In this document: in pieces, positions 8,919-52,249 of the stretch
How positions within the stretch are numbered: position 1 is the stretch's first letter
Layout of the letters: each line of letters starts with the position of its first letter
Notes under the pieces: generated by a model
What the model was told of the DNA's origin: nothing
What the model saw: only the letters and a program-made list of their open reading frames with translations
The model's database searches: none
Made by a program: the position numbers and the translations under genes
NCBI GenBank assembly: GCA_002633005.1
Contig: NMRA01000059.1
Coordinates: 299,883 to 363,882, forward strand
Source: Phoronis australis
Lineage: Eukaryota > Animalia > Phoronida
Direction: 5' to 3'
DNA length: 64,000 nucleotides

Positions 8919-9346
8919 TCACACTGATGTTTCGGAATTGAGTCGCAGTACAAACTTATTGCGCTTCGGGTCAATGACCTCTTCAGTGAGATTAAAGTGC
9001 GGGATGCGTTTGACAGCACACAGGATCGACACCTCTCCCTGCCGCAGCTGAAACACAGTACCATGCTCGATTGTCCGGCTCAATAATAAGTCGCTGACAA
9101 GCACCCATGTCTGAGTTTCCTTATAAAACTTGTCCACACCAATCACGTTTCCCTGGGTGAGGTAACGTGAGAGGAACGCTTTAGGACTGAGGTCATGTGA
9201 GATGCACTCAGCCAAGTGCTCCAGTACCATCTCCATTGTATACTTGGGTTGTTGGCGTGTCACACGCAGGAATTTCTGAAGGGCACGTGCCATCGAGGGG
9301 AAGATAGCTTGAGCAGCTTCCTGAGGGTCCATGGGGATGGCAGGAC
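8919..9346 (-). CDS. VANGL: Vang-like/Strabismus planar-cell-polarity protein, last coding exon
   Basis: GPAIPMDPQEAAQAIFPSMARALQKFLR...KFVLRLNSETSV* (PDZ-binding ETSV); acceptor ttgcag, phase 1 matches upstream donor. Confidence 0.97.
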
Positions 9347-12482: not shown

Positions 12483-12597
12483 TGTAAATAATATCAGGAA
12501 TACTTCCCATGATTTTTGAATTGGAAAACCGAACATTTTGTAGGGAATTAATAAAAAAGACTTCCTAGAGCAGACAGTTTAAGACACCATTTATAAG

Positions 12598-13695
12598 ACA
12601 AGAGCAACGCGGAGCGTTGAAATGCGCCCACAATTGCACCGCATACGGTATCCCTCTAGGGTTGTTTATTGGTACCATAAAGTGGCCAGTAGAGGGCATA
12701 CTTTGCAAAATGGAAAGGCATGGTCATTGTCTCCTCAATAGGATAGGGGCAAAATGTGAGTAATCTTCATAATACAAGCACATCCTATACACCAGTTGCT
12801 TAAAGCACCACAGAAACANNNNNNNNNNNNNNNNNNNNNNNNNNNNNNNNNNNNNNNNNNNNNNNNNNNNNNNNNNNNNNNNNNNNNNNNNNNNNNNNNN
12901 NNNNNNNNNNNNNNNNNNNNNNNNNNNNNNNNNNNNNNNNNNNNNNNNNNNNNNNNNNNNNNNNNNNNNNNNNNNNNNNNNNNNNNNNNNNNNNNNNNNN
13001 NNNNNNNNNNNNNNNNNNNNNNNNNNNNNNNNNNNNNNNNNNNNNNNNNNNNNNNNNNNNNNNNNNNNNNNNNNNNNNNNNNNNNNNNNNNNNNNNNNNN
13101 NNNNNNNNNNNNNNNNNNNNNNNNNNNNNNNNNNNNNNNNNNNNNNNNNNNNNNNNNNNNNNNNNNNNNNNNNNNNNNNNNNNNNNNNNNNNNNNNNNNN
13201 NNNNNNNNNNNNNNNNNNNNNNNNNNNNNNNNNNNNNNNNNNNNNNNNNNNNNNNNNNNNNNNNNNNNNNNNNNNNNNNNNNNNNNNNNNNNNNNNNNNN
13301 GAAAACACTAAAAATGGCCACTAGGTGGCGCAAACTATGTCGAATCCATCTGAAAACGGCAGGATAGCGTCATCTCACTACTAGGTGCCTACATACCAAA
13401 TTTCAAGAAAATCCGTTCAGGACTTTTGAAGATACAAAGGTAAGCGTAAAAAACTTAAATTGCCACTAGGGGGCACACCGGTAGTCGGATCCATCCAAAA
13501 GTTCGCACATGCCGTCCCATTAATGAATGGAACATATGTGCCAAATTTCATGAACGTATGTCAAAGGGTTTTGGAGATAGAGCAGCGGACGCCGGACGCC
13601 AGACGCCGGACGGACGCCGCCCGGACGGACGGACGGACGGACGGACAGAGATGACGGCATAATGCGTCCACATATAAATATGTGGGCGCATAAAA
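12598..13695 (-). mobile_element. HINE-type element, copy 2 (interrupted by assembly gap)
   Basis: acaagagcaacgcggagcgttgaaatgcgcccac at left end; (GGAC)n, hairpin and gcgcataaaaa at right end. Confidence 0.75.
12819..13300. other. Assembly gap (N run)
   Basis: Run of N. Confidence 1.
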
Positions 13696-16600: not shown

Positions 16601-18743
16601 GGGATTTTGACTAAGCCCATAGGAAAAAAACAATTGTATGACTTTAATTAAGGTGGCCTTGATGATCATGTTACCGTGGCATCAACTTTATTCGCAGGTT
16701 ATGAATAATGAGCCATATGAGTCCATGACTAGTGAAAACCACAGCCAGTTAACAACCAGCGACAGAGATAATATGTCAGTCTAGACCTGTCAGATGGCTC
16801 TGGGTTATCAGCTTGACTCCAGGTCACAAAAAAGGTTGGTAAAGCTGATACGGGAAACATGTCTTTTGAGGTCAATTCGACTGGAATTCATTTCGGATTA
16901 TAAATGCAAAGAAATACACAGGCAAATCGCGCCCAGATAATTTTAGGAGTAGTTTAAAAAACACCATGTAAAATATGACACGGCAGATAAAAGCTAACGT
17001 TCTGCAGAGGGTGCATGTTTGTGAAGGACATCTCACTCAGTTATCTTATATTCATGCTTCATTTACTGTGCAGTCAGCTGAGATGAGTATTATCACACAA
17101 CTCAGTGTGCTCTTCCTGGATTCAATACACAACTTCTCAACCATTGCAGGATTCAAGCTTTAGTGAGTTTATCTAGAGCTTATTATAATTCAATGTTAAC
17201 AAGAGGTTACACAAAGAACCTTGCACCACTTGTTCAAAGGTAGACTACAATGTACAAAATAACGAGTAACCCATGCTTGCATAGCAGTGGCATCAAATTT
17301 ATCCAATGTTTATTGTATTTTTAAAAATAAAAAATTTATCGACGACTTTCAGTTTCTTGCAACACTAGGAAAGCACTGACAACCATTTCCATTACTTTAA
17401 GTAAAGTTACGCAATTAAAATGTTCAGTCTACAAAAAAGTAGTGGTTGATGACTCATTGACGCCTAGGTATAAATTTGAACACAGCAGAGGCGCCCTCTA
17501 GCCACAAGAAGAAGCAATGTGCAGACAGAAAGATGGCAGACCTTGCTACAAATGGTGGTCTCTTCTTGACACTCGTGTCAACAAGAAATGTTTTTGAAGA
17601 AAGGCACAATGTTCTATTTTCACTGCTGTTATGAAACATACCAATGGGCTCATGAACTAAAATAGCACCAACAGGTGAAGATCGTCTTTGAAAATACAGA
17701 AATGTTGGTAAATAGTTTGAATGGAGTATTTGAATACATCCACTCAGTAGTGAACAGTACATGCATCATCGGTCACTTTAGTGGTCATTGTTTGTAATTA
17801 CTAGAGGTAAAGGTTTGGTTTAAACAAAATTTAGCCCACATTATGTTCCTGTCACTGTAAATACAGAAAGGTTATGCAGAGGGCACAAAACACGAACTAT
17901 TCACAGCTCAGTCCAAAACAACTAGAAAAGGTTGTATTGAGAGTATAAATCCATCAAAAATATTTCAAATAAGCCACATTTTTGCTCGCAAAGTTATGCA
18001 AAACGTTGTTCCGAAAGTGATTACGCAGTCGCATTCCCACAAGCATCAGATCAGCCAATAAATCGCTCCTCAACAAGCCAAAATCACGTTGGTCAAAACA
18101 ATCTAGTCAGGGCGCCACACTGGAATTTGAAACTGCGGGTCAGTATAACTGGAGAACGTTTGCTCTATGCTGACTTCTCTATATAGATGTTAACACAACA
18201 TTAACGGTTATTAATTTGTATTTTGTTCACAATCAATTTACGTGCCAGTGGTAAACAATTTCTGTTCAAAATACAACAGCACGATTTGTATGTTCACAAA
18301 TTTGTTGGCCTGTTCTCTTATCTGAGACTTTCCTTGTCTATTCACTCATAGCTAGGCCTACATACTACTTTGCACTGGACGAATGACAAAGGTCAAGGCT
18401 GAATGGAACAACATTGGTAATGCATAAGTGATTTTTGATTGTTCTGCGAACGCTCTTACTCTTCCTGCTTTCACAAAGTGTCCGCCATATTAAGTGACAC
18501 AAAGTTGAACATGCTCGACTTCACTGCAACATGTCTGCCGACACCTGCACCACGTTGCAAAACATGCTGCAGAGTCGTTCACATGTGCACTTTGGATGTC
18601 GGCTGACGTTTTGCATAATTTTTGGCCGACAATGTCGCTCGCCTGAAACAGGCTTTAGTAATGTTTGAGCTCACTCAACAGTACACCAAGAACCTGTCAC
18701 ACAAGACATTCCTGGGGAAGACACGCCTGGAAATATTACTTAC

Positions 18744-19739
18744 CTTGTTCATCCTGAAGTCTCTTGATATGAGTGAACGCTTCCTCAGCAGCGGCCATAA
18801 GTCGGGCTCGTCTCTTCCTGACGCGCCGCTCGTATTCTTGCTCCTCATAGAATCGCTCATTATGACTGACATCTCGCCGCCTCGCAGCTGCCGCAAATAT
18901 ACCACGGGCCTTGCTGTGTGGCGTCTGGGTAGAAACACCATCGACATCATAAACTTTGAATGAGTTCATTTTTGCAGACTTACGACTCCCAATATTTTCT
19001 AAGTAAGGGTTATAGGCACTGAAATCTCGGTAATAGTGCTTGAGACACTCCACTGCAGCTCGCTGTATACTTAACATGCCCATGTTGTATGAACGTGTTT
19101 CACCATCAGGAGAACGCACTATCTTTACTGTAAACTGACACTGGAGCTGGCGAATCTCCAGCAAGATGACTGCAATATAATGGATGAAAAGCAACGCATC
19201 AACAAGTGACACAGCAAACTGGACAATGGTCTTGTATTGTGTCTCCTTCTTGAAGAAGATGCGCACTCCATAGAACAGCCAGAAGGAGAACGTTAGGACG
19301 AAGACGAGGAAGAGAATGAGTGCACGGAAAATGAAAACACGTGGCATTGTGGCCTCCAGGCGCCGGAAGAACAGCGCCCACGTCCCGATGAGAAGAATCA
19401 ACAGTTTGAAGGCAAAACTGATGAGAAGTCCCTCACAGCTGGCTTCACACTCCCCTGTCTTCCAGTCTGCAAGACCGACTTTAGGTAATACTACCATGGC
19501 AATGGGTGACAGGAAGGCGAGGGCAGCCAAGATGGCCGACACCACAGTGCCGACATAACGTGTACAGTCAAAGCCCATCGACTCTTCCATGTCTTTTGTG
19601 AATCGGCTCATGTCCACATCATTGACAGTAAAGTCAGTAACACTAGTGTTGCCTGTGATAGCTGACTCAGCGCCCCAGTTGTCATCCTGCGGCAGGATCT
19701 GTACCTCAATACGTTCATCCTCACCCATTGTGTCATCAC
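18744..19739 (-). CDS. VANGL: Vangl coding exon 2 (four TM helices and cytoplasmic region)
   Basis: IEVQILPQDDNWG...CEGLLISFAFKLLILLIGTWALFFR...LSIQRAAV...HNERFYEEQEYERRVRKRRARL; tttcacag acceptor, G|gtaagt donor, phase 1/1. Confidence 0.98.
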
Positions 19740-19874
19740 CTGTGAAAGAAACACATCAAGTTTCATATGTATTGTACAATAATATCGGTCATAATTAGAG
19801 TTGGACCCTTATGTTTGACATTTGGAATCCGTCACATTTAGAGTTACTCATATGTTTGATTCATGATATCTTGG

Positions 19875-32300: not shown

Positions 32301-32390
32301 ATGGTGGTCCTTCCAAAGGAATTTAAGCCTGGTGTTCCCGACTACAGCTCAGTTCACGAACCGCTTGGGGAACTCTTCAAGCCTGTCAAG
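32301..32390 (+). CDS. PhyH-family Fe(II)/2-oxoglutarate dioxygenase, exon 1
   Basis: MVVLPKEFKPGVPDYSSVHEPLGELFKPVK|gtttgc, phase 0; aaaATGG start context. Confidence 0.75.
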
Positions 32391-33801
32391 GTTTGCAGCT
32401 CATTAGATGAAACTTGCGAGCTAGCTGATGTTTGCATTAATGCACGCGACATTAACACCCAAAGGCCAAAACCCATTCACGGTGGTGAGGGTAAAAACCC
32501 ATCTAGGAACAATGGGGAAAACAAATTATGGCCCCATAAAGTCAGGAAATGTATCAGTTAGCAGACCTGAGGCTGAGACTGAGAGACCTAGTCCTAGTCC
32601 TAGTTTGTTTTTTACGTTCTGAAAAGGGGCATGCATCCAATGATTAAATTTCAAGCAAAAGCCAACCCCCCTGCCATTTCTGTAGTGAGTGAGCAAAAAG
32701 TCACGGAAGGAGACACAGAGGTCTCCAATTTGATGTTAATAATTCAAATTGTAGACAAATTTCTGGACTTGTTTGTCAAAACAGGCAAACCATGTCTGTA
32801 ATAAGAGATATCAGAACTTAGTAAGTCCAGAGCATATGTTGAAGCAAACTGGTAGATGTGACTTAACACGTGGCACCCCTTAGTTGTGTCTGTTTATGTG
32901 GAAATGCCTGTTTATACCAGAAGTGTGGTTGCTGTAATGTTGTAAAATCCTGCTTGCATTGTAATCATTGATAACTTACTGGAAGTTAGCCATCTGATGT
33001 CTTGTATCATGAATTCCAACTACGGAATTCACTCAGTAATCCAATCAGCCACACAAGTACGTCCGTTACAGTTGTGACCCATCAACAAGTTAAACAACAG
33101 CACAAAACGAAGGCTGTTGAATTGAATGTCCCACACTTGCTGGAGATAGGTGATGTGGACCAATTTTTTCAAGAAAAACAAGGTGAAATCACTCTTTAAA
33201 ACTCCATGAGAAGGCAAACGCTGGATAGTCTAACGTTGACAGTAAGAAAGCCTTCATTCTATCATAAACACAAAAGGAAGGATCCTCAAGGGTTGATCCA
33301 TGGGAATCTTGCTTTGAAATTTACCACTAGAGTGCGCTATGCAATTCCTCATCTTTTTCAACTAAACACGACGAAATGCATTTTTTAAAACTATGTATTT
33401 AGTTGCCAAGACAAAAAATGAAAAAACATTACACCTCTTTAGATCTGATTTTTGCATATTATTCCTCACATGATTTTTGCATATTATTCCTCACCATGAT
33501 AGAACTTGATTCAACATAAGCATCAGCGACTCCAGAGAGTGCTTCAAATTTTTGGGAGGTTGGCCAGCCTCAATAATGAGAATTCAAAAATGGTGCTTGT
33601 ATACATTGCCTACTGCCTTTACTTGCCGGCAATTTAATTTACAATTCGGCATTGTTTATTACTGCATGCCGTCTTATTATTTCAACATTTAACAGAGTTC
33701 TCTAGCTCCTTGTAATCCGGCTTCAGGGACGATAATTTCACATCAACATGTTTTGAGGCTATTAGCCTTCTGCTGATTCGTAATGGTTATTCATATTTCA
33801 G

Positions 33802-33939
33802 GACAAAGCTGAATGGAATTCGTACAAGTTTTCTCAAGAGCAGGTTGACCAATTTTGGAGAGATGGTTACATTACCAATGTACCTTTGTTAACAGAGGCG
33901 CAGTGTGACCGAATCCTTGAAGACTGTAAATATTTTATG
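33802..33939 (+). CDS. PhyH-family dioxygenase, exon 2
   Basis: DKAEWNSYKFSQEQVDQFWRDGYITNVPLLTEAQCDRILEDCKYFM; typical PhyH N-terminal EQxxxFxRDGY; tttcag / gtaagt, phase 0/0. Confidence 0.93.
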
Positions 33940-34157
33940 GTAAGTGAGTGCAAAAATCAGTCAAGTTGTATTTGTTGAACTTGTAATATTTGAAATGAGG
34001 TCACCGGAGTGCAAACACTAATTTCTCAGAATGTGCCTTCACAAATACTATACAAAAGATGTATTAAAAATTAAGACAATTGTTGACATGGAAAAGTAAT
34101 GCTAACAGGGTATAAGGAAAATTATGAATAAATGATGAGATAATAAATACTGATGAT

Positions 34158-34328
34158 TACAAGATGTACGATGGTACAGCGTGATGAGATAAAACAAAGA
34201 TGTACCATGGTACAGCATGATGAGATAAAACAAAGATGTACCATGGTACAGCATGATGAGATAAAACAATGTTGTACCATGGTACAGCATGATGAGATAA
34301 AACAAAGATGTATTGTGCTACAGCATGA
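34158..34328. repeat. 36-bp minisatellite, ~5 copies, abutting the Penelope relic 3' end
   Basis: Unit gatgagataaaacaaagatgtaccatggtacagcat. Confidence 0.92.
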
Positions 34329-34334
34329 GCTGTA

Positions 34335-34760
34335 GACATTGATCTGGGTTCATGGTGGGTTGTCTGCTCCTGATAAAGATGGCTTCTTTAAATTTGAAGA
34401 GATCCAATGTTCCTCTCTGCTTAGAACTTGGTCATTGTCCCTGTCCACAGTATGGTCAGTGTTGATGGTGTGTTCACCAATGCCTGAGGGTTTGTCCATG
34501 TTGGAGTGTTCCTTTCTTCTAGTCACCAGAGAGTAATAGTTTCTCCTATGTTGGTGTGGGAGGGGCCCTCTTTGCAAGAGAGCTAATATTCCACATATGA
34601 CTTGTTGTCGGTGAGAGTGGAATCCTAAGGGTGAATCAGTTTCTCCTGGATGGTGTTTTAAAAATAAGCTTGCAGTAGGTATCTACCCCATGCGATCTAG
34701 AGGTGTGTGCAAACTGCTCAGAAAAGTTCCTGAGGGCCACAGAGGAGTGTTTTCCTTGTC
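34335..34760 (-). mobile_element. Penelope-like retroelement relic (linker + GIY-YIG endonuclease), frameshifted
   Basis: Fragments SEQFAHTSRSHGV...TIQEKLIHP*D, IGET...LVTRRKEH...SGIGEHTINTDHTVDRDNDQVLSREEHW, KEAIFIRSRQPTMNPD resemble the PLE C-terminus. Confidence 0.8.
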
Positions 34761-35168
34761 ATCTTGGAAGGATGTATATGTATCTTCTAAACTTTTCGTG
34801 CTTGCTCTTAACAACTTTAATTTGGACCAGATTAAATAAAGGTGCTATAAACCTGCTTTCAATAAAAATAACCTTTGAATCATTAGATAGCCATATAACT
34901 TGAATGTTAAGTCTAGTTCAAGTTGCATCTCCTTTAGTACTACTATTGGGTAGAGCGGCATTATGTCAGGTGTTGGTGATGGCTATAAGACTAATCTTTC
35001 TCCCTGTGGTGTCATATACTTTGAAAATAACAGAAGCCATTCATCAAGTTAAGCAATTCATTCCTTCAATGTTTTTGACATGTTGTAGCTGCCACATTTA
35101 TGTGTGTTATCATTCAAGGTAAAGTAATACTCTTGGTGCTCCGTGCATTGGGTATTCTTCATTTCCAG

Positions 35169-35422
35169 GATGCCACTTGTCGTCACCCCGGCCACGAAAT
35201 GTTGTATGAATATTGGTCTAATCAAACAGGAGATAGTGACAATGTTTTGATGCATTGTCTTGGTCACTGGAGGCTGACCAGACTCTTCCATGACTTAGTC
35301 TTCTTACCAGCAGTTGTAACCCCAGCATCACAACTGCTGGTAGAAAAAAAAGAAGTCCCTGTTAGATTTTGGCATGACCAAATGTTTGCTAAACCAGCTA
35401 AGCATGGTGGAAATGTCTGTTG
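35169..35422 (+). CDS. PhyH-family dioxygenase, exon 3A (mutually exclusive alternative)
   Basis: DATCRHPGHEMLYEYW...HCLGHWRL...VRFWHDQMFAKPAKHGGNVCW; ttccag / gtaagt; 254 nt, phase 0/2. Confidence 0.93.
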
Positions 35423-35721
35423 GTAAGTTAAGTTCGTTGCCATGTGTTCTTGCGGCCATTAGCTTTGTGCTATTAGCAGCCACGCTTTCTGAAACTGCGC
35501 TAGATATTGCACTGGGTAAAAATAAATTCTTACTAGTAAATAGGCCATTGCTGTATATTTAGTCTATCAGACAAAGAACTCATAATGCCATTTAGTTACG
35601 GAATAAGGATGACATTCAAGTTCTAATAATTCCTTTCAAAATGTTCTCAGACAGGTGGAGTCAGTGGCAAATTCATGAATATTTTGTGTCGATGACTATT
35701 TTGTGTGAGTCATGTAAGCAT

Positions 35722-35890
35722 CCCACCACCCTGAGGCTCGTACCACCTAACTGAGGCTCCCACTACCTAACTGAGGCTCCCACCACCTAACTGAGGCTCC
35801 CACCACCTAACTGAGGCTCCCATCACCTAACTGAGGATCCCATCACCTAACTGAGGATCCCATCACCTAATTGAGGCGCCCACCACCTAA
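35722..35890. repeat. 20-bp minisatellite, ~8 copies, between exons 3A and 3B
   Basis: Unit ctgaggctcccaccacctaa. Confidence 0.93.
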
Positions 35891-36125
35891 GTGAGACAGA
35901 GCCCAGACAGTTGTCTGATGCGGAGGCACAGAGTGAGACAGAGCCCATAGACAGTTCCGTGCATCACACAAACTTGTGAATATGAGCGTGCCATATTTGT
36001 CATTACCGGACGTTGATTATAATGATACACACTTGTGATTGTGAGCACTCCATCTTTTGTCATTACAGGACAGTAATTATACCACACACTTAAGGATATG
36101 AGAACGCCATCTTTTGTCATTACAG

Positions 36126-36379
36126 GACATTAATTTAAACCACCCTGGTCACGATATGCTATATGAGTACCACAGAAACCAATCAAATGATGTGGACAAT
36201 GTGCTAATGCATTGCCTGGGACACTGGCGCTTGACCAAACTGTTTCATGACTTGGTGTTTCTGCCGCAAGCTGTTGTTCCTGCTTCACAGCTTTTGCTTA
36301 AAGATAAGGAATGTGGTGTGCGCTTCTTTCATGATCAAATATTTGCAAAACCTGCTAAACATGGCGCCAATGTTGCCTG
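36126..36379 (+). CDS. PhyH-family dioxygenase, exon 3B (mutually exclusive alternative)
   Basis: DINLNHPGHDMLYEYH...HCLGHWRL...VRFFHDQIFAKPAKHGANVAW; ttacag / gtgagt; 254 nt, phase 0/2. Confidence 0.93.
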
Positions 36380-36790
36380 GTGAGTGTAGGGAACACCCAT
36401 GAACTGTTATCTGGTACAACTTGTCTTGTATCATGGTGATCAAGTCTGCATCTGAGCCATGTTTATCATTGCTTTGTTGAGGATGTAAAACTCATGTACA
36501 CTCCTAATCCAAAATTTAGTTCTCTAAACGTAATCTGTGTTTCATTCCAGAATAAATATTGTCATTTAGTTAATTGTTTATGAACATATTGTCACCTAAC
36601 CAGTCTAAGCAGACAATAATTTCTGCGAACAGCTAGTCTTCTCCAATTATAGTCCATTCAATCTGTAGTTTGGAATGTAGGTCCTTGGCTCCACTTTGCA
36701 GGGTTTCTCAAATGAACAGTTTCAGTGAATGTCAAACAAAGTAAATGCTTTATGGCTCATTCATCTCTGGACAAAAAATTTCAAAAGTAC

Positions 36791-37035
36791 TTGTCATAAC
36801 AGATGTTGCAGCATTATGGGTACATACAGCAAGATTTTAGTGTGTTTCGTGGCTGCACTGACAGTGAAGTTAAGTTGGACTAATTTAGACACTTTAATAG
36901 TATTAAAGTGTCTAAATTAGTCCAACTTAATTCTCTGTCAGTGCAGCCACGAAACAGTAGGGCCGTCCCTGATTACACATACACACTAAAATCTTGCTGT
37001 ATGTACCCATAATGCACCAGCATCTGTCATGACAA
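36791..37035. repeat. ~245-bp near-perfect foldback palindrome centred on 36900
   Basis: ...ttggactaatttagacactttaata-g-tattaaagtgtctaaattagtccaa...; outer arms gcattatgggtacatacagcaagattttagtgtgt / acacactaaaatcttgctgtatgtacccataatgc; ~25-nt insertion in right arm. Confidence 0.95.
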
Positions 37036-37782
37036 TAGCTCACTGTTTTCCACCATTGGAGGTGTTCTTCATTCTTATTAATCCTTACATTTTTTTGTCC
37101 GCTGCTTTACCAACGAAGTATTACTGCTGTGCTGTGTGCTGCAACTGATGGGAGAGAGCTGGATAAACTTGATAAGTGCCGTTTGATGCATGATGTTAAG
37201 CTCTTCACCTTCCTGACTTCAATCATTGATAAGAAAATGCAGAGCTAGTGAATGAAACGAGTTTGTCGAGTTAATTTTGAACCGAACAGAATCCCCTTTT
37301 TTAATGATACCCTGTCTATGCCCTTACTTTTGAGTGGTTGAAATCAGGAATATTTCCACAGCCATACACCTTGACAATTTCTGTCATGAGTTGTGAAAAT
37401 GTGCGCGGCATTCGTAAAGGAGGCACACGCCTCTGGGACAAAAGAGAGTTCTATTGCTGTGGTATTCTATTATGTTAGGTCTGAGCTGACATTGTTAGCT
37501 TTTTACTTTACCTGGCCATTATAATAAATATAATAAGTTATTTGTGTCCATTTCTATTGTTATAATTAGCAATGTTATACATTTCATGGAAAGAAATTAA
37601 AGAAAAAACCGTGATGAGTGTAAACTATAATGCTATTTTATACGCTGCCATCAAATTTTGGGTTCAAGCATATGTGGCATCACGTCAGTCCAGCTGTTGG
37701 TTCTTATCTTTCCATGTGCATTAATTATATTGAACTTCTGTAGCTGAAAATATAATAATTGGCCACACTGTTTTGTTTACAG

Positions 37783-37834
37783 GCATCAAGACTACTCCTA
37801 TTGGACAAGGACCAAACCACTGGCTCACTTGACG
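37783..37834 (+). CDS. PhyH-family dioxygenase, exon 4 (HxD iron ligands)
   Basis: (W)HQDYSYWTRTKPLAHLT; tttacag / gtaagg; phase 2/0. Confidence 0.95.
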
Positions 37835-38260
37835 GTAAGGTTACTCTGTCTGATGATGGTATTCATGGATAATGCACAGTGCGCTCTTTGTTCATTCTGT
37901 TACATTACGTACTGCATGTTAGAAAAATGAGATCAGGTGAAATAGTAATGACACACAGAGTAAAAGTCTGATTGTCATTCAAACAAGTGTTGATAACAGT
38001 GTGTGTAGTTACTATAATGACAATTCAGTCAACTCTACAATTCAATTTACATTTAAATTATGTAACACTAATTCTCCATCATGTTAAGAGAGAAACATGG
38101 AGGCTTTTAACAATAGTAGTATTAGGACTCTAAAATCTGTGCATTTATGGAATTACTTCCTATACCCTGAGCATAACTTGAGGTCTATGTTCAAGTTTGT
38201 TTGGGTTTTTCATCCTTTGTTTGGAAATCAAGCTTTGACTAGTTGTCTTTTTGTTTGCAG

Positions 38261-38328
38261 GTTCACATTGCTCTGGATGACCAGACTTTGGATAACGGCC
38301 CTTTGCTGTACATTCCTGGCTCACATAG
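38261..38328 (+). CDS. PhyH-family dioxygenase, exon 5
   Basis: VHIALDDQTLDNGPLLYIPGSH(R), hallmark LDD...NG.L..IPGSH; phase 0/2. Confidence 0.95.
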
Positions 38329-38701
38329 GTCAGATTTTGGTAGAGTCTTAAATTATCTGTATACCAATAATAATCATAATAATGACTTAGTAACATAATG
38401 GTAAGAGCTGTTTCAAGTCTTATTATGTAATCAAAGTGGCACATATTTGCTGTCTTTTTACTGAAAGGCAACAAACAATGGGCAGATTTAAAAACATTCC
38501 ACCATGGCTTTATATGTGCAGTGCACACTGGCTCATGTCCATGGCTTTATGTGTGCAGTGCACACTGGCTCTTGTTCACAATATGTTTGTTGATCCCCAA
38601 AGAACAGACATGGAGTAAATTTTCAGTATCGAAGGATCAACCAGTATACTTCAAATTTGAATGAGCATGCATTAAATTGGTTAACCGACAGTACTTTTGC
38701 A

Positions 38702-40024
38702 TTTTTATGCGCCCACATATTTATATGTGGATGCATTATGCCATCATTTCCGTCCGTCCGTCCGTCCATCCGTCCGTCTGGTGTCCGGCATCCGCTGCTC
38801 TATCTCCAAAACGCCTTGACATATGTTCATGAAATTTTGCATATGTGTTCCCAATGTGGATGGGACGGCATGAGCGAGCTTTCAAAGGGATCCGACTATG
38901 GGTGTGCCCCCTAGTGGCAATTTTAGTTTTTTACGTTTACCTCTGTATCTTCAAAAGTCCTCAACGGATTTTCATAAAATTCGATATGTTGGCACGTATT
39001 AGTGAGGTGACGTTGTTCTCTCATTTTCGGATGGATGCGACGTAGTTTGCGCCACCTAGTGGCCATTTTTACTGTTTTCGAGTCTGTTTTTTGCATCCAC
39101 CCCTCTGTCAACCAAACCGCTCGAAGAATGGTTATGAAAATTGGCATGTACGTTCATACTGTGAAGTGGACGGCTGATGATGATTTTCTGATGAGTTCAA
39201 CTACAGTGGCACCTCCTAGTCGCAGTTTTGTTTATTTTGCGCCTATGCCTGTATCTCCTAAACCGTTCGCAGGATCTTTACTAAATTTAGAGAGTGTATT
39301 CATATGATGTAGGCAATGAACCACAACAACTTTCGGATGGATCTGCCTGCTGGTGTGCCCCCTAGTGGCAATTTCATTTTTTTTACGTTTAACTGTATAT
39401 GTTCAAAGGTCCTCAACAGATTTTCATAAAATTTTGAGTATAGGCATCTATTGGTGAGGTGACGCTATCCTCCTGTTTTTGGATGGAATCGAGGTATTTT
39501 GCACCACCTGGTGGCCATTTTTGCCATTTTCGAATCTTGTTTTTGGCGTCCACCCTTCTATAAACCAAATCATTCTAGGGATGGTTTTAAAAAATGGCAT
39601 ATATTTTCTCAGTGTAAAGGGGACGACGTTTGATGAAGGCGACTGACTACTGTGGCTCTTCCTAGTGGTAGTTTTGTTTTGCTTTTTGCCCATAGCTGTA
39701 TCTCCTAAACTCACTACAGGATCTTTATTAAATTTATTGAGTGTACTTTGTAATGAAGATAACAAAAGATTTCTACTACTTTCAGACGGATCTAACGGAC
39801 ACTGTGCCCCACTTAAGTGGCAATTTCATTTTATTCTGTTTTCCTTTGTTTTTCTGAAGTTTCTTGACACATTTTTATGAAATATGGCATGTTCCATTTT
39901 TTTGATGGATTGTACGTTTTTGCGCCATCTAGTGGCTATTTTTATGATACAAATAAATAACCCTAAAAGCACACCATTTGCGATGCATTCGTGGGCGCAT
40001 TTCAATGCTCTGCATTGCTCTTGT
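38702..40024 (+). mobile_element. HINE-type element, copy 3 (full length)
   Basis: tttttatgcgcccacatatttatatgtggatgc ... (TCCG)n ... gtgggcgcatttcaatgctctgcattgctcttgt. Confidence 0.82.
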
Positions 40025-40434
40025 GAATCAGTTTTGTGTACAATCAGAGCTGCTAGCAAACTACTTTACCTTGAGTTTATACAGAACCGTGGAGGTGGAA
40101 GTTCGTTGCTCACCAGTGACTGCTGGTTAGTAGTATATATGAAAGGGAATTAGACTTATTGCCTGAAATTTATAGTTTACGACTGAGAAGGAAAAAATAG
40201 ATTCCAATTTAATTGTTTTTGGTAAAAAAACAATGCTGACGTTCTGATTATTTTTTGCACAAGATAGAAAAAACAGAAGAGACTGGATTTGTCATGTAAC
40301 TTTCAATTTTTATTTTAAAAGAAAAATCAAGTTTTTCTGTTGTACAATGACCTGAACTACTAGTTGTATGATTTATTGATCCAATTTATTTCATTGAGAA
40401 CTAATCAATGAACCAAGTCAACCTATGTTTGTAG

Positions 40435-40501
40435 GTGGACAAGAAATGGCGAACCTCTTCCAGTTACAGATTTTAACTTTGTTGACATGGAGTCAATCAA
40501 G
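40435..40501 (+). CDS. PhyH-family dioxygenase, exon 6
   Basis: (R)WTRNGEPLPVTDFNFVDMESIK; ttgtag / gtaatt; phase 2/0. Confidence 0.88.
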
Positions 40502-40566
40502 GTAATTGTCCATTTCAATAGATTTCTACAAATAACAATGTCAGTGTAAGTTCTAACATTCTTAGT

Positions 40567-42305
40567 TTTATGCGCCCACATATTTATACGTGGACGCATT
40601 ATGCCGTCATCTCTGTCCGTCCGTCCGGCGTCTGGTGTCCGCTGCTCTATTTCCAAAGCCGATTGATGTATGTTTATGAAATTTTGCACACGTGTTCTTT
40701 TCATGGATGGGACGGCATGAGCGAATTTTTGGATGGATCCGACTACCGGTTTTCCCCCCTATTTACAATTTTAATTTTTTACGTTTAGCTCTGTATCTTC
40801 AAAGGTTCTCAACATATTTTCACAAAATTTGGTATATAGGCATCTATTAATGAGGCGACAATATCCTCCCCTTTTTGGATGGATTGGACGGAGTTTGCGC
40901 CACCTAATGGGCATTTTTACTGTTTTCTAGTCTGTTTTTATCGTCCACCCCTCTTTCAACCAAACTGCTCTAAGCATGATTGTGAAAATTGGCATGTATA
41001 TTTTTACTATGACGAGGACAATTGACGATGATTTTCCGACGACTTCGAATACTGTGGCGCCTCCTAGTGGCAGTTTTGTTTTTTATGCACCTATAGCTAT
41101 ATTTCCTAACCGTTTGCTAGATCTTTACTAAATTTAGTAAGTGCATTGATATCATGATGACAACGGACGACGACGACAAGTTTCGGACAGATCTGACTAT
41201 TGGTGTGCCACCTAATGACAATTTGATTTTTTTGTGTTTACCTCTGTATCTTCAAAGGTCCTCAACATATTTTCATAAAATTTGGTGTACAGGTTTCTGT
41301 TAGTGAGATGACACTATCTTTCTGTTTTCAGATGGATTCGACGTAGTTTTCGCTACCTAGTGGCCATATTTACTGTTTTTGAGTCTAGTTTTTGGGGGTT
41401 CACCCCTCGATCAACCAAACCGCTTTCAGGATAATTGTGAAAACTGGCATATATGTTTTTACTATGAAGTGGACGAGTGACGATGATTTCTGTTGACTTT
41501 GACTACTGTGGCGCCTCCTAGTGGCAGATTCGTTTTTTGCGCCCTGGGTGTATCTCCTAAACCGTTTGCAGGATCTTTACTAAATTTGATAAGTGTGTTT
41601 ATATGATGTTGACAACGGACGAGTGTGCCCCCTGGTGTCAATTTTAGTTTTATGTCTACCTCTGTATCTTCAAAGGTCCTCAACGGATTTTCATAAATTT
41701 TTGAATATAGCATCTATTAGTGAGATGATGCTATCCTCTCATTTTTGGATGGAATCAAGGTATTTTGCACCACCTAGTGGCCATTTTTGCTGTTTTCGAG
41801 TCTGTTTTTTGGCGTCTACCTCTCTATAAACCAAATCATTCTAAGGATGGTTTTGAAAATTGGTGTATGTGTTCTCAGTGTGAAAAGGACGGTTGACGAC
41901 AACTTTGACTACTGTGGCACCTCCTAATGGTAGTTTTGTTTTTTTTTGCGCCCATAGCTGGATCTCCTAAACCCACTGCAGGATCTGTATTAGATTTTAT
42001 TAGTAAGTGTATTTATATGAAGCTAACAACAGACAATGATGACATTCAGGCGTATCCAATGAACAGTGTGCCTCCTAGTGGCAATTTCATTTCAATATGT
42101 TTCTCTGATGTTCCGGTATGGATTTCTATGAAATTTGGTGTATAGCTTTCTATTAAAGAAGCAATGACGTGGTTCTGTTTTCGGATGGATTGTACCTTTT
42201 TGCGCCATCTAGTAGCCATTTTTATGACACAAATAAACAACTCTAAAATCACACCATTTGCGATGCATTCGTGGGCGCATTTCAATGCTCCGCGCTGCTC
42301 TTGTT
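40567..42305 (+). mobile_element. HINE-type element, copy 4 (full length, more internal units)
   Basis: Same termini as copy 3; ends gtgggcgcatttcaatgctccgcgctgctcttgtt. Confidence 0.82.
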
Positions 42306-42605
42306 ATCAGCGCCATGAACTTTTATCTGTACGGTCAACGGAGCCATTTCCAGTGACTTGTTCAATCACCATTTCTTGAAATTCTTCCAGTTAATGTACT
42401 TTACATACTAGTATCGACACATAACACTGTATGCACATGTTTACGCCCAAGTACCATGTGAAGGTGCACTTAAGTTCAGAATTAATTACATGTCCCTGTA
42501 TGTGAAAGGCTTGAGCAACATTTTCTTTGAAAAACATCATTTCAGACATTGGTGCATGGCCCAAAATACGCTCATGTGTGGTAATTTTGTTGTGGATTGT
42601 TTTAG

Positions 42606-42718
42606 ACCATCTTGAATGAAGAGGAGAAGGCTAATTTCAACCCGGTGTCAGCCATGTTGAAAAAAGGCCAAGCCAGCTTTCATCATGGTCTTTCTGTACA
42701 TGGCTCTTATGGGAACAG
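42606..42718 (+). CDS. PhyH-family dioxygenase, exon 7 (distal His ligand)
   Basis: TILNEEEKANFNPVSAMLKKGQASFHHGLSVHGSYGN(R); phase 0/2. Confidence 0.95.
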
Positions 42719-43230
42719 GTAAAGTTGTATACTGGAACTTTTTTACTGTAAATCGGATGCTCCTGAAATTAATTTATCATTTATAATGAAGTTTTCAACA
42801 TATTGTAGTACTTCTTAACTTTGATGTTCAAGTGCAAAAGGGCAACAATTTATACTAGAAGCCTGGATATAATGATTTGTCCTCGGAAACAATTCTCTCA
42901 ACCATTATTGTTTAATACTTGTGTTGTAATAAAAAAGTCAAAACTAAATTACATTTTGTTTGAACATTTTTATGGGTTTATGTGCAAGGGACGAGTAAAA
43001 AGTGCTTACATCAAGAGTGTACATAACATCCATATTTCCCTAACACCTCCACCCATCCCAACGTGTTATGTAAAGGAAGATCAAATTAAAGTGACCATAT
43101 ACTCACCATATACTCACCTGTCAATACAAGGTAAATGGTGATTTCAAATACTACGAAGATACTTTGTAAACTTTTTAAGGTTACTATAATTGTGAATAGC
43201 CCTTATACTGTGCTAATGTTATTCCCTAAG

Positions 43231-43330
43231 GTCCGACAGCCCCAGGCGTGCTACTGTTCTAAACTACTTCATGGATGGTGTCATGTCTGACACGGATGAA
43301 GAAACATTGAAAGGAATAACTATTCCTAAG
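43231..43330 (+). CDS. PhyH-family dioxygenase, exon 8 (2OG-binding Arg)
   Basis: (R)SDSPRRATVLNYFMDGVMSDTDEETLKGITIPK; ccctaag / gtaaga; phase 2/0. Confidence 0.92.
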
Positions 43331-44039
43331 GTAAGATAGTCTTTCTCATGAATGTAAAAGGCAAAGCAAATTTTACAAGTTAAAGCACTTCATGTCAAGA
43401 GCACAGCCTTGCTGGGCTGCACTCATCTCATGCGGTGCTATTTTTATAAAACACCTTTTGTCTCGATTCATGTTTTGGATATAACCTTTCGGCATAGTTA
43501 TTTACTACAAACGAAAAGGTTGGAGTCTGATTGATTGCAATTGATACCTTAAGAAGCTCCATTTTGTCCTGATTAGTAGACTAAAAGGCAAAATCGAACT
43601 AAGGCTTTTACTGACATGCACTTAGATCTTATGTTCATTACCAACATGGAGGATGAACCAACATGGAGGATGAACCAACATGGAGGATGAAACCATCGGC
43701 AACTCAAGAAAATTTTTCAGAGCTTAGTAGAGTTGTCTGACCTTAAAACTGCATACACATTTCCCTTTACTAGAGCTGCCAGGATCATTCAACTATAATT
43801 CAAGATCAGAATATTCTTTTTAAACCCTAAAGGGCTTTGGTTAAGAATTCAACGTAGACAGCAACTGTGAAATGCAGCTTTAATTTAAAGGAATTTGGTT
43901 TTTTGTAATGAAGGTAATCAGCCTCTGCAAATTATCTTTTCGTGCTGTCATGTTTTGCATCGAAAATGGTCTCGACTAATAATGAACTTTAGTACTTTGT
44001 AAGTTCAGAAACCATCTCTCATCTGATACGTTATACAAC

Positions 44040-44288
44040 TTGATATACACTTGCTCATATTGTTCTCTCCATACAATACAGCTTGATATACACTTGCTCA
44101 TACTGTTCTCTCCATACAATACAGCTTGATATACACTTGCTCATACTGTTCTCTCCATACAATACAGCTTGATATACACTTGCTCATACTGTTCTCTCCA
44201 TACAATACAGCTTCATATATACTTGCTCATACTGTTCTCTCCATACAATACAGCTTCATATACACTTGCTTATACTCTCCGTACAATT
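44040..44288. repeat. 43-bp minisatellite, ~6 copies
   Basis: Unit gatatacacttgctcatactgttctctccatacaatacagctt. Confidence 0.93.
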
Positions 44289-44891
44289 TCCGATCTTCAG
44301 TTGTGCAGCGGTATAGCAAATTGTCAATAAAAATAACAAACAAGCTAAAATAGTAACTATATTTTAAGATCACATCTCATCCTCAGACTCATGATAAAAT
44401 GAACGTTGTGGAAGCAAAATAACCCACAAAAGCAAGTAGAAGGACATACAAGCCAAAAGTGTGAATGTAGCCATGTTACATCATCAGACTATATGAGCTG
44501 TGTATGTCAAGCTGTCCAACAGGAAGTAGTCATGTTTTCAATCAAGTTTAAGATATTCATGTGAACAGATATTTAGTGATGGTACTGGAATATTGTTCTT
44601 AGTCGCAGCTGGACAATTGGTAGATTGCATTAAGACAAATGTTTCGAAATACCATAAAACTCGCCACTTGCAGCCATCTGTTTCCAAGATTTTATAGGAA
44701 TTGTCTGAATGCCCAAGTGCCCAAACTGGAATGAACATACTTTGTCCAACACCTTGAAGTTAATCTTGTGTTGAAGTTCTTAAAAATGTTTAGTTGGTGT
44801 GATTTTACAAATGCCACCCACTCAAACGAGCCTCCTTGAAACAGGCCCCCTTGAAACCCTTCTTTGTATATCTCTATTCTTTTTGTTTCAG

Positions 44892-44951
44892 GGAGAGAAG
44901 ATGGGTGGTCAATTCTTTCCTCTTGTCTATGATCCAGCTTGTACCAAGTAA
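44892..44951 (+). CDS. PhyH-family dioxygenase, last exon (total CDS 942 nt, 313 aa with either 3A or 3B)
   Basis: GEKMGGQFFPLVYDPACTK*; tttcag acceptor; AATAAA at 45364. Confidence 0.9.
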   Translation, partial: GEKMGGQFFPLVYDPACTK

Positions 44952-47568: not shown

Positions 47569-47855
47569 TACAAAGGCTCATGTATAAGTCACTCAAATCC
47601 AAGGAAACACAAATAGCTCCTCCAGAAAAACAAATGATGGCTTGTAAATGATTTTGGATGCCAGGAAGTTTATAGCAAAAACTTTAAAAAGTCAACTATA
47701 GGCTATTAAAACATAGAATGTAAATGAAAACATAAACTTAAGACCATAACATGACTTGGGAAGACTAAAAGGATGCAGTTCATTAAATTACAGAGGTAGA
47801 AGAGACAAATTCAGTTCATAATCTCTTTGTAAACTTCTTTAGTGGTTTGACATCA

Positions 47856-47896
47856 TCACTTTTTCTCCATTTTTGACAACTTCTTGTTTTGTGTCC
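47856..47896 (-). CDS. ePHD-finger gene, probable last exon
   Basis: tttttcag acceptor; (G)TQNKKLSKMEKK* in phase 1. Confidence 0.55.
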
Positions 47897-47919
47897 CTGA
47901 AAAAGACAAGTACAACATG

Positions 47920-48108
47920 AATACACATTGTTGCCATAACACGTTGTTCAAAACATTATTGCCATAACATGTTGTTCAATACATTATTGCCATAACACAT
48001 TGTTCAATACATTATTGCCATAACACAATGTTCAATACATTATTACCATAACACATTGTTCAATACATTATTGCCATAACACATTGTTCAAAACATTATT
48101 GCCATAAC
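47920..48108. repeat. 28-bp minisatellite, ~7 copies
   Basis: Unit aatacattattgccataacacattgttc. Confidence 0.92.
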
Positions 48109-48673
48109 GAGTATAAATAAATTGAGCCTAGACAGAAGAAATTTACCCAAATAGACTAAAATAGTCGATTGTAAAATATGGCTGACATCATTAATTTGTA
48201 TGAAAAAAACTGTTTTAAGTGGTGAGTCAAACACGGGACTTGTGTCTGTCTGTGCGTCACAACATTTCTTTCCCATGTAATTACACCATAAATAGTCTGA
48301 AGATTAAAATTCCAAAATATTCAAATCAAATCTAACAATTGAACGTAGTCTCGCCACTTTTCCATCCACGGCAGCTGTGATGTTGCCATGAAAACAAATA
48401 GAACGATGATAGGAAGCAGACAATCTTAAAAGCATTCTGCCAACCTCAACACTTCTGATGACATTTCAGACTCTTTTTACTGACAACGATTGGCCTTCCA
48501 ATTTGGGACAGGAGATTATTTACTGTCGTGTTACGAAAAAGAATTGAAATGGATAAAGTGCAGTTGAGTGATCTGGTTTATACTATGCATATTATTTGGC
48601 ATACATTTACTATGTGAATGAAATACAGTTCATACTGCCTACACATGCACAAGACACTCCTCGAGAGCCTCAC

Positions 48674-48866
48674 CTGACAGAGGTATGTAGACAAGAACAC
48701 AGGTGACTGGGAATTTACTGGGGTCAAATGCGCTCCACATTTCTGTGTGCCTTTTCAAAATATCTGGCACTATGTCAGTGCGCTTGAATGGTTCCCCTTG
48801 TAGGTCCATAACACACAACAGGTCATCATCTTTGTCCAGTTGGTTAGTGACCATGTACTGCAGGGT
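48674..48866 (-). CDS. ePHD-finger gene exon (C-terminal domain)
   Basis: TLQYMVTNQLDKDDDLLCVMDLQGEPF...VLVYIPLS; ctacag / gtgagg; phase 0/1. Confidence 0.75.
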
Positions 48867-48910
48867 CTGTAGATATGGAGTAATAAAGGTAGTAGACAAT
48901 CATGTGAATG

Positions 48911-49062
48911 AACCCTGAATTGTACCCCTGAACCACTGAATTGTACCCCTGAACCCCTGAAATGTACCCCTGAACCCTGAATTGTACCCCTGAACCCTGA
49001 ATTGTACCCCTGAACCCTAAATTGTACCCCTGAACCCTGAATTGTACCCCTGAACCACTGAA
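48911..49062. repeat. ~20-bp minisatellite
   Basis: Unit ccctgaattgtacccctgaa. Confidence 0.92.
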
Positions 49063-50064
49063 TCATTCTTTCAAACAGGACAAAAAATCTTACATAGGAA
49101 CTTCAAAACCAATTGTTCCAAAAAATCAAATGTTATGATTATTTTAATTCAAAAATCCATTGTACACACTGCACACATTATGTATTGTGCCTCATACATA
49201 GGATGTTGGACTTAATACATTATTGGGTAGTTCTGTAGTAGTATCACTAATCAGAGACTTTCCATGCACTCTAGACAACAAACATTTGTCTGAAGAGATT
49301 TTCACGTTTTCTGTTGAACATTTACACCATGGACATACCGGTCAGAGGTGAGCTGGAATATATTGTGAACTCCGTACTATCTATCATTCAAACCTGCATG
49401 CAAAGACTGAGACAACACTTCTAAGTAGTGAATCCACTGATTTTCAAGTGTGACGAGTTCGGAAAATGCATAATTAAGTCAAGTACATTTAACTGGTCAA
49501 AAGATGACTGTAAATAATGGTGGGAATGGGACTGTATACAAAGAGGAGACAAGAAAACAAAACAAGTTGAAGACTAGTGCCTTGAATGGCATGCCAACTG
49601 TCAATGTCTGACATTGATCAAGTTTCTGAAAGCAGTCCCCAGCACACTGTAAGTGACGACACCTACAGGGAAATTGTTAAATTACCACAGCTGGCTTTGC
49701 TCTTGCAGGCACCAAGCAGCCTGTGACGCTCTTTTACCACAATTGTGGTTATTTCTAATATTTTGAATTTTTACCAGCTAACATGGTGAGAGGTGATTTG
49801 TTGATTTGTAGACCATCATCTTTAAATGGAAATCGTGCCTGGTATGCAAACTGAACCATGAAAGGGTTGAGAAGATCAAAATGTAAAACGTTTTACAGGC
49901 CACTATAATGAGGTACAAGCCTTACTTGCAACATTGGTTTGGGTTTTGTTAAATGCCTTTTCTGTAGGTAAACGGCAGTTTGCTCATTTGATGTCACAAA
50001 GTCAAATTGTGATAAGACCACAGACTATAATACAAGGCCAGGTGAGTAATTTGTCCATGCTACT

Positions 50065-51140: not shown

Positions 51141-51244
51141 TTGACCTACGTATCACATTTTAGTAAATTTAGCACTGTATATCCATTTTCACTCACAAAA
51201 CCTACATTGAAGTCATCAAACCTAAGTCATCATTCTATTCTTAC

Positions 51245-51732
51245 CCTTTAAAACTTCTTCTGACGGCAAGGAAGTCACACAGACTGTCGACCTCTGACGT
51301 ACATGGTCCTCAACTTCACATCTAACAACCTCTGCCTCGGCTCTTCTAAACCACTCCAGGTCAGAGGTCATATAGGCTGAGTGTGCCGAGACAACTGTAT
51401 CATTGTCCCACTCGAAAAGACCACTTCCCTCTCCCCAAGTGAGAAACTGTCGGATCCGTCCATCACAATCCGTCACGTCGTTTAACAAGACAGTCATTAC
51501 AAACACTTGCTCTTCATCTAGACAGTAAAGTGAGGCCAGCTCACCAGCACCACAGTACTCGCGACATGCCTTTTCCAGATTTTGGTCAATCATAGTATGA
51601 ACAGAGTGCACTATCTCTCTTAACTCTGAGGAGTCCTTACGGTTGTTGTAGTCAATCTTGACATTGAATTCTGCAATACTCTTTTGGTCCAGCTGCCGTA
51701 AAAGCTTTGAGAAATGAGAATAGTCCTTCTCC
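51245..51732 (-). CDS. ePHD-finger gene, large exon (488 nt)
   Basis: EKDYSHFSKLLRQLDQKSIAEFNVKIDY...LASLYCLDEEQVFVMTVLL...EEVLK open throughout; tttcag / gtaaga; phase 2/1. Confidence 0.82.
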
Positions 51733-52249
51733 CTGAAATGAAAACAAAAGGCATGGTCTAGTGAACATATCTAACTCAAGCACACACATTTATACTAAAT
51801 TACATTACTTGCCAATAGTAATGGATTCCTTGTCCAAAAGCAAACTTAGACTTAACTTGGAAGCTGTATTCAACTGGCTAAAAACAAGTTCAGTGAATTT
51901 ACATTTTTCTGAAGTAATTGCAACCCACTACGATGACAAAAACATTGGCAATGCAATCCAAACCAAGCTGAGCCTTTGAATAATGGGGAAAACTTCCATT
52001 CACGGATCTCTTCTGTCCAGTGTCTATACACCGAAATAGCATTCAAAACTAAAAGAGGGAAGTCCATTGTCACCAAGAGCACATTCCCTACATGTAAGAC
52101 ACTCCCTGGGGCACATGCCATACGTTAAGACACTTACCAGATGCCTACAGGGAGAAATCTTGGCATATGGAACAGAAATAACATTTCTACAAAAAGTAAC
52201 TATACTTCCCAGATTTCACTAAATCTGCAAGTAGATACACCAGTATTGA

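What the first reader, a model, noticed from the sequence alone, without database searches (positions are those of the whole stretch)
35169..36379. Duplicated, obligatorily mutually exclusive exon pair that swaps the active-site-proximal segment of a PhyH dioxygenase
Seen: exons 3A (35169-35422) and 3B (36126-36379) are both exactly 254 nt, both phase 0/2, both with good splice sites and no stops; 62/85 aa identical by my count, with many synonymous changes in conserved stretches (aatgttttgatgcattgtcttggtcactggagg vs aatgtgctaatgcattgcctgggacactggcgc, both NVLMHCLGHWR). Only one copy of every other exon exists. Including both or neither shifts the frame. Known: in PhyH-family enzymes the segment before the HxD motif carries the first core strand with the 2OG-binding Lys and substrate-contacting loops. 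Inference: one gene encodes two isozymes with different substrate or kinetic properties (EYWSN vs EYHRN, FWHDQM vs FFHDQI, GGNVCW vs GANVAW), analogous to the PKM1/2 or KHK-A/C switch; I do not know of this being described for this family.
Basis: partly seen in the sequence, partly recalled or inferred. Interest (0 to 1): 0.82.

Follow-up and report, generated by a model that had tools for sequence, protein, structure and literature searches.

The report
Swappable pocket exon in orphan dioxygenase
An invertebrate gene for an iron-dependent dioxygenase of unknown substrate carries two old, diverged copies of one exon, and RNA reads show either copy being spliced in, which gives two predicted enzyme forms with the same catalytic residues that likely differ modestly in how they handle substrate, a known kind of splicing switch that my searches did not find reported for this enzyme family.

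Summary
Confirmed. Exons 3A (35169-35422) and 3B (36126-36379) are a tandem duplicate in a nine-exon PhyH-family Fe/2-oxoglutarate dioxygenase gene of a lophotrochozoan. Three RNA runs show all four exclusive junctions (e2>3A 37, e2>3B 47, 3A>e4 100, 3B>e4 47 reads), list no 3A>3B junction, and show 5 reads that skip both. Synonymous sites are saturated, dN is 0.25, and 7 of 8 listed read variants are silent, so both copies are maintained. The 3A share is 35-69% by depth across runs. Other animals split this segment with an intron that both copies lack, and 219 homologue records show no such pair, so the duplication is likely lineage-restricted. The exon builds much of the pocket, but the Fe ligands lie in shared exons, and the conserved Lys and the other invariant residues are the same in both copies. 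Each copy departs from the family at 3 of 36 near-invariant positions. A kinetic or selectivity difference is plausible but untested, and the substrate is unknown. New member of a known kind (coq-2, PKM, P4HA1).

The parts
32301..32390 (+). exon 1, coding part (ATG at 32301; transcript contig begins near 32209)
   Evidence: junction 32390>33802 in 46/31/37 reads and contig X1; model
33802..33939 (+). exon 2, common upstream exon, ends in phase 0
   Evidence: junctions to 3A, 3B and e4
35169..35422 (+). exon 3A, mutually exclusive copy, residues 77-161 (W92, W144, M148, G157, C160)
   Evidence: 37 upstream and 100 downstream junction reads
35963..36138 (+). three tandem 57-60 nt units spanning the 3B acceptor; the middle unit gives a decoy AG at 36067-36068 that is in frame but meets a TGA
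   Evidence: repeat families D4-D6; translation; no junction to it listed
36126..36379 (+). exon 3B, mutually exclusive copy, residues 77-161 (H92, F144, I148, A157, A160)
   Evidence: 47 upstream and 47 downstream junction reads
37783..37834 (+). exon 4, common downstream exon; completes Trp161 and encodes Fe ligands His162 and Asp164
38261..38328 (+). exon 5
   Evidence: junction reads
40435..40501 (+). exon 6
   Evidence: junction reads
42606..42718 (+). exon 7; distal His255 and Ser257 (His-X-Ser)
   Evidence: junction reads; motif position
43231..43330 (+). exon 8; Arg266, predicted 2-oxoglutarate-binding
   Evidence: junction reads; motif position; spacing as in EctD His248/Arg259 (PMC2871039)
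44892..44951 (+). exon 9, coding part with stop; 3' UTR runs to about 45353
34696..34710 (+). upstream arm of a candidate 15-bp intron-intron RNA stem (lead only)
   Evidence: -26.3 kcal/mol, reached by 4 of 300 shuffles, one of 10 region pairs scanned
37423..37437 (+). downstream arm of the same candidate stem (lead only)

Best explanation
The gene splices either exon 3A or exon 3B between shared exons 2 and 4, giving two predicted 313-residue PhyH-family dioxygenases with the same iron and 2-oxoglutarate ligands, which likely act on the same unknown substrate with somewhat different affinity, rate or stability. Shown: both junction sets, the frame logic, purifying selection on both copies, and a ratio that differs between samples. 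Inferred: the pair arose by tandem duplication of an exon that had first fused through intron loss in this lineage; the choice is made by ordinary regulated splice-site competition; frame-shifted both/neither products are cleared by nonsense-mediated decay; the few changes at conserved positions next to the pocket (W/H92, W/F144, G/A157, C/A160) tune the enzyme rather than change its reaction.
For: Junction reads in 3 of 3 runs for all four exclusive joints and none listed for 3A>3B against 100 for 3A>e4. pS 0.89 (saturated) against dN 0.25; 37 of 58 identical degenerate residues use different codons. 7 of 8 listed read variants in the two exons are silent, the eighth Glu>Asp (P about 1.5e-4 given the silent-site share). 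3A share by depth 0.45, 0.35, 0.69; junction totals differ between runs, chi-square p 0.011. Model of the scallop orthologue (pLDDT 94.9) puts the exon over the hairpin, two helices, strand I and the start of strand II; in EctD the residue three before the first Fe-His points into the pocket (PMC2871039), and its equivalent Val159 is shared. Premature stops lie 641 and 328 nt before the last junction. 31 of 150 listed hits stop matching at codon 50 and read on as if into a phase-0 intron, 3 start there, and 2 carry an insert there.
Against: No activity or substrate is known. 18 of 23 differences are in variable columns. Three departures per copy is not exceptional (10 of 41 animal homologues have 3 or more; 3/36 against 0/50 in the shared exons, Fisher p 0.07). 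The shift between runs is clear at the upstream junction (p 0.005) but not at the downstream one (p 0.42), and run X4 also differs in genotype, so regulation and cis variation are not separated. Residue orientation relative to the pocket was not measured, because no coordinates were returned. The three runs are one study.
Confidence: 0.55

Rival explanations
1. Both exons are functional but interchangeable: the duplicate is kept because either copy works and the splicing choice is loose or genotype-driven, and the differences are mostly neutral drift.
For: A and B are 73% identical, about the same as either is to orthologues of other phyla (53-75%); departures at conserved columns are within the range of other animal homologues; both forms are present together in all three runs.
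Against: A redundant copy would be expected to decay over the time needed to saturate synonymous sites, yet both stay open and selected. F144 (2 of 148 homologues), A157 (1 of 146), C160 (0 of 146) and W92 (1 of 148) are rare in the family.
Confidence: 0.27
2. A true substrate or reaction switch of the coq-2 type: one copy keeps the ancestral substrate and the other has been remodelled for a new one, selected by condition or tissue.
For: The exon covers most of the pocket wall before the HxD motif; coq-2 does this with two residues in worms and molluscs (PMC7434440); active-site swaps switch outcomes between SnoK and SnoN (PMC12006828), the next-best folds; the ratio differs between runs.
Against: Neither copy is simply ancestral: each carries its own departures. 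All invariant residues are shared. No second species with the pair was found, whereas coq-2's exon pair recurs across phyla.
Confidence: 0.15
3. Assembly or haplotype artefact: 3A and 3B are alleles, or belong to two collapsed gene copies.
For: The species is polymorphic; the whole genome was not available; read-level linkage between exon choice and the exon-4 variant in X4 was not examined.
Against: The copies differ at 35% of bases, while reads differ from each at about 1-2%. In X2 and X3 each exon shows two alleles of its own while the exon-2 variants are fixed (60/60, 42/42), and both exons join the same exons 2 and 4 at 93% likeness or more. Sense-strand reads cover the intron between the copies.
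Confidence: 0.03

Closest known systems
coq-2 exons 6a/6e of nematodes, flatworms, molluscs and annelids (PMC7434440; passages read)
   Same: Homologous mutually exclusive exons that rebuild part of an enzyme core near the substrate site, in invertebrates.
   Different: coq-2 has a genetically proven substrate switch and isoform-specific residues conserved across phyla; here the pair is seen in one species and no function is shown.
P4HA1 exons 9a/9b (PMC11868403; passages read)
   Same: Mutually exclusive exon pair in a hydroxylase of the Fe/2-oxoglutarate superfamily (superfamily membership recalled); ratio changes with condition (hypoxia).
   Different: Collagen prolyl 4-hydroxylase, not PhyH family; a different segment of the protein (recalled).
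Homologous MXEs as a class, including PKM1/PKM2 (PMC7954323; abstract, outline and passages read)
   Same: Same origin by exon duplication; fold kept, variable residues at or near functional sites.
   Different: No mention of 'dioxygenase' or 'hydroxylase' in that paper's main text; its supplements and web resource were not seen.
Trypanosome RESC14 (PDB 8FNC chain 14)
   Same: Closest solved structure: E 1.6e-62; Z 36.3, rmsd 2.1 over 291 residues, 33% identity.
   Different: The RESC14 sequence has Gln-Gln-Asn where this family has His-Gln-Asp and lacks the distal His, and it is deposited as an RNA-editing complex subunit; both isoforms here keep the full triad.
SnoK, SnoN, MysH, proline hydroxylase H11, human PAHX and PHYHD1
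   Same: PhyH-type fold, Z 21.6-26.1.
   Different: Only 22-25% identity; none assigns a substrate. Database names such as 'PHYHD1-like' or 'ectoine dioxygenase-like' on the orthologues are automatic labels.

Membership tests
Homologous mutually exclusive exons | Adjacent exons homologous by tandem duplication, same length and phase | tested here: met
   254 nt each, phase 0/2, 62/85 aa
Homologous mutually exclusive exons | Each exon is spliced to the same upstream and downstream exons | tested here: met
   four junctions in 3 of 3 runs
Homologous mutually exclusive exons | The two are not joined to each other | tested here: met
   no 3A>3B row (listing needs 3 reads from 2 starts in a run), so at most about 3-10% per run; skip-both seen in 5 of 89
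Homologous mutually exclusive exons | Both copies under purifying selection | tested here: met
   pS 0.89, dN 0.25; 7 of 8 variants silent
Homologous mutually exclusive exons | Both isoforms made as protein | not testable with these tools
   needs proteomics
PhyH family (PF05721) | Pfam PhyH match above cut-off | tested here: met
   met on orthologues P0001 and P0002 (112 and 122 bits, cut-off 22); each exon alone gave no hit, and the spliced isoforms themselves were not scanned
PhyH family (PF05721) | HxD...H triad, His-X-Ser, downstream Arg | tested here: met
   H162, D164, H255, S257, R266, all in shared exons; motif definition from PMC2871039
PhyH family (PF05721) | PhyH-type double-stranded beta-helix fold | tested here: met
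   orthologue model, pLDDT 94.9; Z 21-36 to PhyH-type structures
PhyH family (PF05721) | Fe/2-oxoglutarate turnover | not testable with these tools
   needs assay
Human PAHX / PHYHD1 orthologues | Closest characterised relative and same clade | tested here: inconclusive
   22-23% identity, well below RESC14 (33%) and marine bacterial hits (45-55%); no tree with them was built
coq-2-type substrate switch | Isoform-specific residues recurring across species | tested here: inconclusive
coq-2-type substrate switch | Different products from the two isoforms | not testable with these tools
   substrate unknown
Docking/selector RNA-pairing control | Conserved competing base pairs in flanking introns | tested here: inconclusive
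   one 15-bp stem, 4 of 300 shuffles, one of 10 region pairs; no comparative sequence

The most novel reading that the evidence does not exclude
A lineage-specific splice switch gives an orphan dioxygenase family, the catalytically intact relatives of trypanosome RESC14 found in marine animals and Bacteroidota, two pockets with different substrates or oxygen affinities, chosen by tissue or condition as in coq-2. The two natural variants on one scaffold would then point to the residues that set specificity in an uncharacterised family.
Probability: 0.15. Interest if true: 0.7.

Novelty: new member of a known kind. Interest (0 to 1): 0.42.

Why it matters
It adds an RNA-verified, enzyme-core mutually exclusive exon pair in a family where my searches found none reported. 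It has a readable history (intron loss, then exon duplication) and offers a natural two-variant experiment on an orphan enzyme. Its weight is limited: the kind of switch is well known, other readers have noted several such clusters in the same genome (unchecked), and neither substrate nor isoform difference is shown.

Tried and rejected
Whole-genome search: no genome is held for this window, so paralogues elsewhere in the genome were not checked. The run finder listed no holder on record as RNA; the raw-read runs came by species label and were laid. The first lay was swamped by a repeat at 38.7-42.3 kb. The assembled contig of X1 carries 3A only, and its depth in the 3B bin is 0; contigs do not show absence, so this was not used. 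Exon-3 tree of 50 rows: unresolved; 3A and 3B not sisters in the best tree, but sisterhood not rejected (p-AU 0.38); it gives no date. Steric exclusion rejected: the intron between the copies is 703 nt, and the last six branch-like motifs, the only ones printed, lie 384 nt or more from its donor. U2/U12 incompatibility rejected: all sites are ordinary GT-AG. Flanking introns of the two copies keep no alignable similarity (22/60 on each side). RNA-pairing scan: 9 of 10 region pairs gave nothing clearly beyond shuffles apart from a tandem-repeat palindrome. The Atlas search returned only PhyH clusters. Searches of earlier findings by relatives and by words were empty. Paper searches without a relevant hit for this family: 1 unrelated listing; 0 each; some searches gave listings that did not describe it. 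No open text on RESC14 or on the MysH structure was found. A MysH-like (sunscreen-compound) function was considered and not pursued: identity is about 25%, no better than other PhyH members.

Full report
Observation. They share 164 of 254 nt and 62 of 85 residues. tblastn of each of the ten exons against the window finds a second copy for exon 3 only. With exons 1, 2 and 4-9, either copy gives a 313-residue frame; both together stop at the 11th nt of 3B, and neither stops in exon 5. The seven junctions listed for this gene in the first lay agree with this model.

Expression. Three stranded raw-read runs of one study (about a fifth of each read) were laid on 33750-38400. Reads per run X2/X3/X4: e2>3A 5/4/28, e2>3B 14/14/19, 3A>e4 22/18/60, 3B>e4 12/12/23, e2>e4 1/0/4, e4>e5 37/38/87. 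No 3A>3B joint is listed (threshold 3 reads from 2 starts). So both copies are used at comparable levels and one at a time, with a leak of 5 of 89 that skip both. By exon depth the 3A share is 0.45, 0.35 and 0.69. Pooled junction counts differ between runs (p 0.011); the upstream junction carries this (p 0.005) and the downstream one does not (p 0.42). X4 also differs in alleles from X2 and X3, and sample identities are coded, so tissue regulation and genotype cannot be separated.

Selection and artefacts. Synonymous sites are saturated (pS 0.89; dS not computable) while dN is 0.25. Of the 8 read variants listed inside the two exons (26 further rows of that table were not shown), 7 are silent and one is Glu to Asp. 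In X2 and X3 each exon shows two alleles of its own while exon 2 shows one, which argues against haplotypes or collapsed paralogues. The genome itself was not available.

The gene. Homologues are PhyH-family proteins (PF05721; on two orthologues) of molluscs, annelid, nemertean, brachiopod, amphioxus, echinoderms, krill, sponge, rotifers, protists and many aquatic bacteria. The neighbouring Vang/Strabismus gene matches lophotrochozoans best (up to 71%, best named hits 64-68%), so the host is a lophotrochozoan not represented in the database; I could not place it more closely. In 14 of the 15 named species present in both hit lists, the Vang and PhyH records give the same longest-contig length (read by eye), including a 221-kb Ruditapes contig and consecutive accessions in Mya, which supports orthology. 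The closest solved structure is trypanosome RESC14 (E 1.6e-62; Z 36.3, rmsd 2.1, 291 residues), whose sequence lacks the metal triad; next come SnoK, SnoN, H11, MysH, PAHX and PHYHD1 at Z 21.6-26.1 and 22-25% identity. No substrate follows from this.

History. Among 221 rows (219 homologue records plus the two isoforms), 131 pairs differ by 5% or less outside exon 3, and only the A/B pair has 8 or more differences inside it. This covers annotated isoforms of many molluscs, Owenia, amphioxus and a crinoid, but only what annotation holds. A profile search (150 of 215 hits listed) showed that other animals split this segment. In 42 hits the first-half motif is followed by Val or Gly with no second-half motif; I dropped 11 whose tails continue in homologous sequence, which leaves 31 that read on as if into a phase-0 intron after codon 50. 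They include a fragment matching the oyster sequence and a Biomphalaria record. Three ORFs hold only the second half and end at the same Trp as our exon, and two carry an insert at that point. Both 3A and 3B run through this position without an intron. The simplest reading is intron loss followed by duplication of the fused exon in this lineage (inference). The exon tree does not resolve the order (p-AU 0.38).

What the exon builds. A model of the scallop orthologue (70% and 69% identical to 3A and 3B over the exon; pLDDT 94.9) places the exon over a loop, the hairpin strands 89-92 and 103-106, two helices, core strand 140-150 and the start of strand 158-161. The Fe ligands H162, D164 and H255, and S257 and R266, are in shared exons. 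All 12 invariant columns of the 113-row alignment, among them H104, Q146, F148, K150 and V158 in scallop numbering, are the same in both copies. In EctD the residue three before the first Fe-His protrudes into the pocket (PMC2871039, passages); its equivalent here is shared. Of 23 differences, 18 lie in columns under 90% conserved and 5 in the 36 columns above. A has T96, M148 and C160 (Cys in 0 of 146 homologues), plus W92 (1 of 148, krill); B has F144 (2 of 148), I148 and A157 (1 of 146). Three departures per copy compares with a median of 1 in 41 animal homologues, 10 of which have 3 or more; the shared exons have 0 of 50 (Fisher p 0.07). This hints at divergence near the pocket but does not show it. 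Side-chain orientation was not measured.

How exclusivity is kept. The intron between the copies is 703 nt and all sites are GT-AG, so steric and spliceosome-type exclusion are unlikely. Both mis-spliced forms have stops far upstream of the last junction and would be decay targets (established rule, recalled). Skip-both reads survive while double inclusion is not listed, which suggests that splicing itself disfavours 3A>3B (weak inference). A 15-bp stem between 34696-34710 and 37423-37437 is reached by 4 of 300 shuffles, and its upstream arm's next-best partners lie at the 3B acceptor repeats, but it is one of 10 region pairs scanned and has no comparative support.

Comparison and verdict. It works like coq-2 6a/6e (PMC7434440, passages), PKM (PMC7954323, abstract, outline and passages) and P4HA1 9a/9b (PMC11868403, passages). 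It meets the tested criteria for homologous mutually exclusive exons and, through its orthologues and motifs, for the PhyH family. Ten searches of the open library showed no report of such a pair in this family; two searches asked that directly. Subscription papers and supplements, including MXE catalogues, were not seen. Unchecked notes list five other duplicated-exon clusters in the same genome, so this is a common device there. Verdict: real, RNA-verified, likely lineage-restricted, new member of a known kind; functional divergence plausible and untested. Interest 0.42.

Noticed in passing
window 8919-19755 (- strand): Vang/Strabismus gene (PF06638, E 2.7e-149); appears linked to the PhyH gene in 14 of 15 named species present in both hit lists.
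   Followed up: partly
window 356-1369 (+): 337-codon stop-to-stop ORF with a Fic/DOC domain (PF02661, E 1.1e-11), apparently without introns over this stretch.
   Followed up: partly
whole gene 32301-44951; PDB 8FNC chain 14: This orphan animal and bacterial PhyH subfamily is a close relative of trypanosome RESC14 and keeps the metal triad that RESC14 lacks; it may mark the active lineage from which RESC14 derived.
   Followed up: partly
window 35963-36138: The 3B acceptor and first bases of the exon are triplicated in 57-60 nt units, creating an in-frame decoy acceptor with a stop; no reads listed for it.
   Followed up: partly
window 35305-35342: Perfect 13-bp hairpin with a 12-nt loop inside coding exon 3A (I22); read depth over 3A rises from 5' to 3' in X2 and X3.
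   Followed up: no
window 35466-36089 and 37182-37649: Sense-strand intronic read depth is higher after 3A and after 3B (up to 9 and 14) than in the exon 4-5 intron (0), perhaps slow removal of these introns.
   Followed up: no
window 36791-37035: Nested inverted repeat of about 245 nt, MITE-like, in the 3B-exon 4 intron; tandem repeats at 34125-34340 (36 nt) and 35703-35922 (20 nt).
   Followed up: no
window 38700-42300: Two copies of a high-copy repeat with internal tandem units flank exon 6 and attract many reads from elsewhere.
   Followed up: no
window 51222-51770 (- strand): 182-codon ORF with protein-like composition and no Pfam match; exon-like pieces near 47850-49630 suggest a gene on the - strand.
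   Followed up: partly
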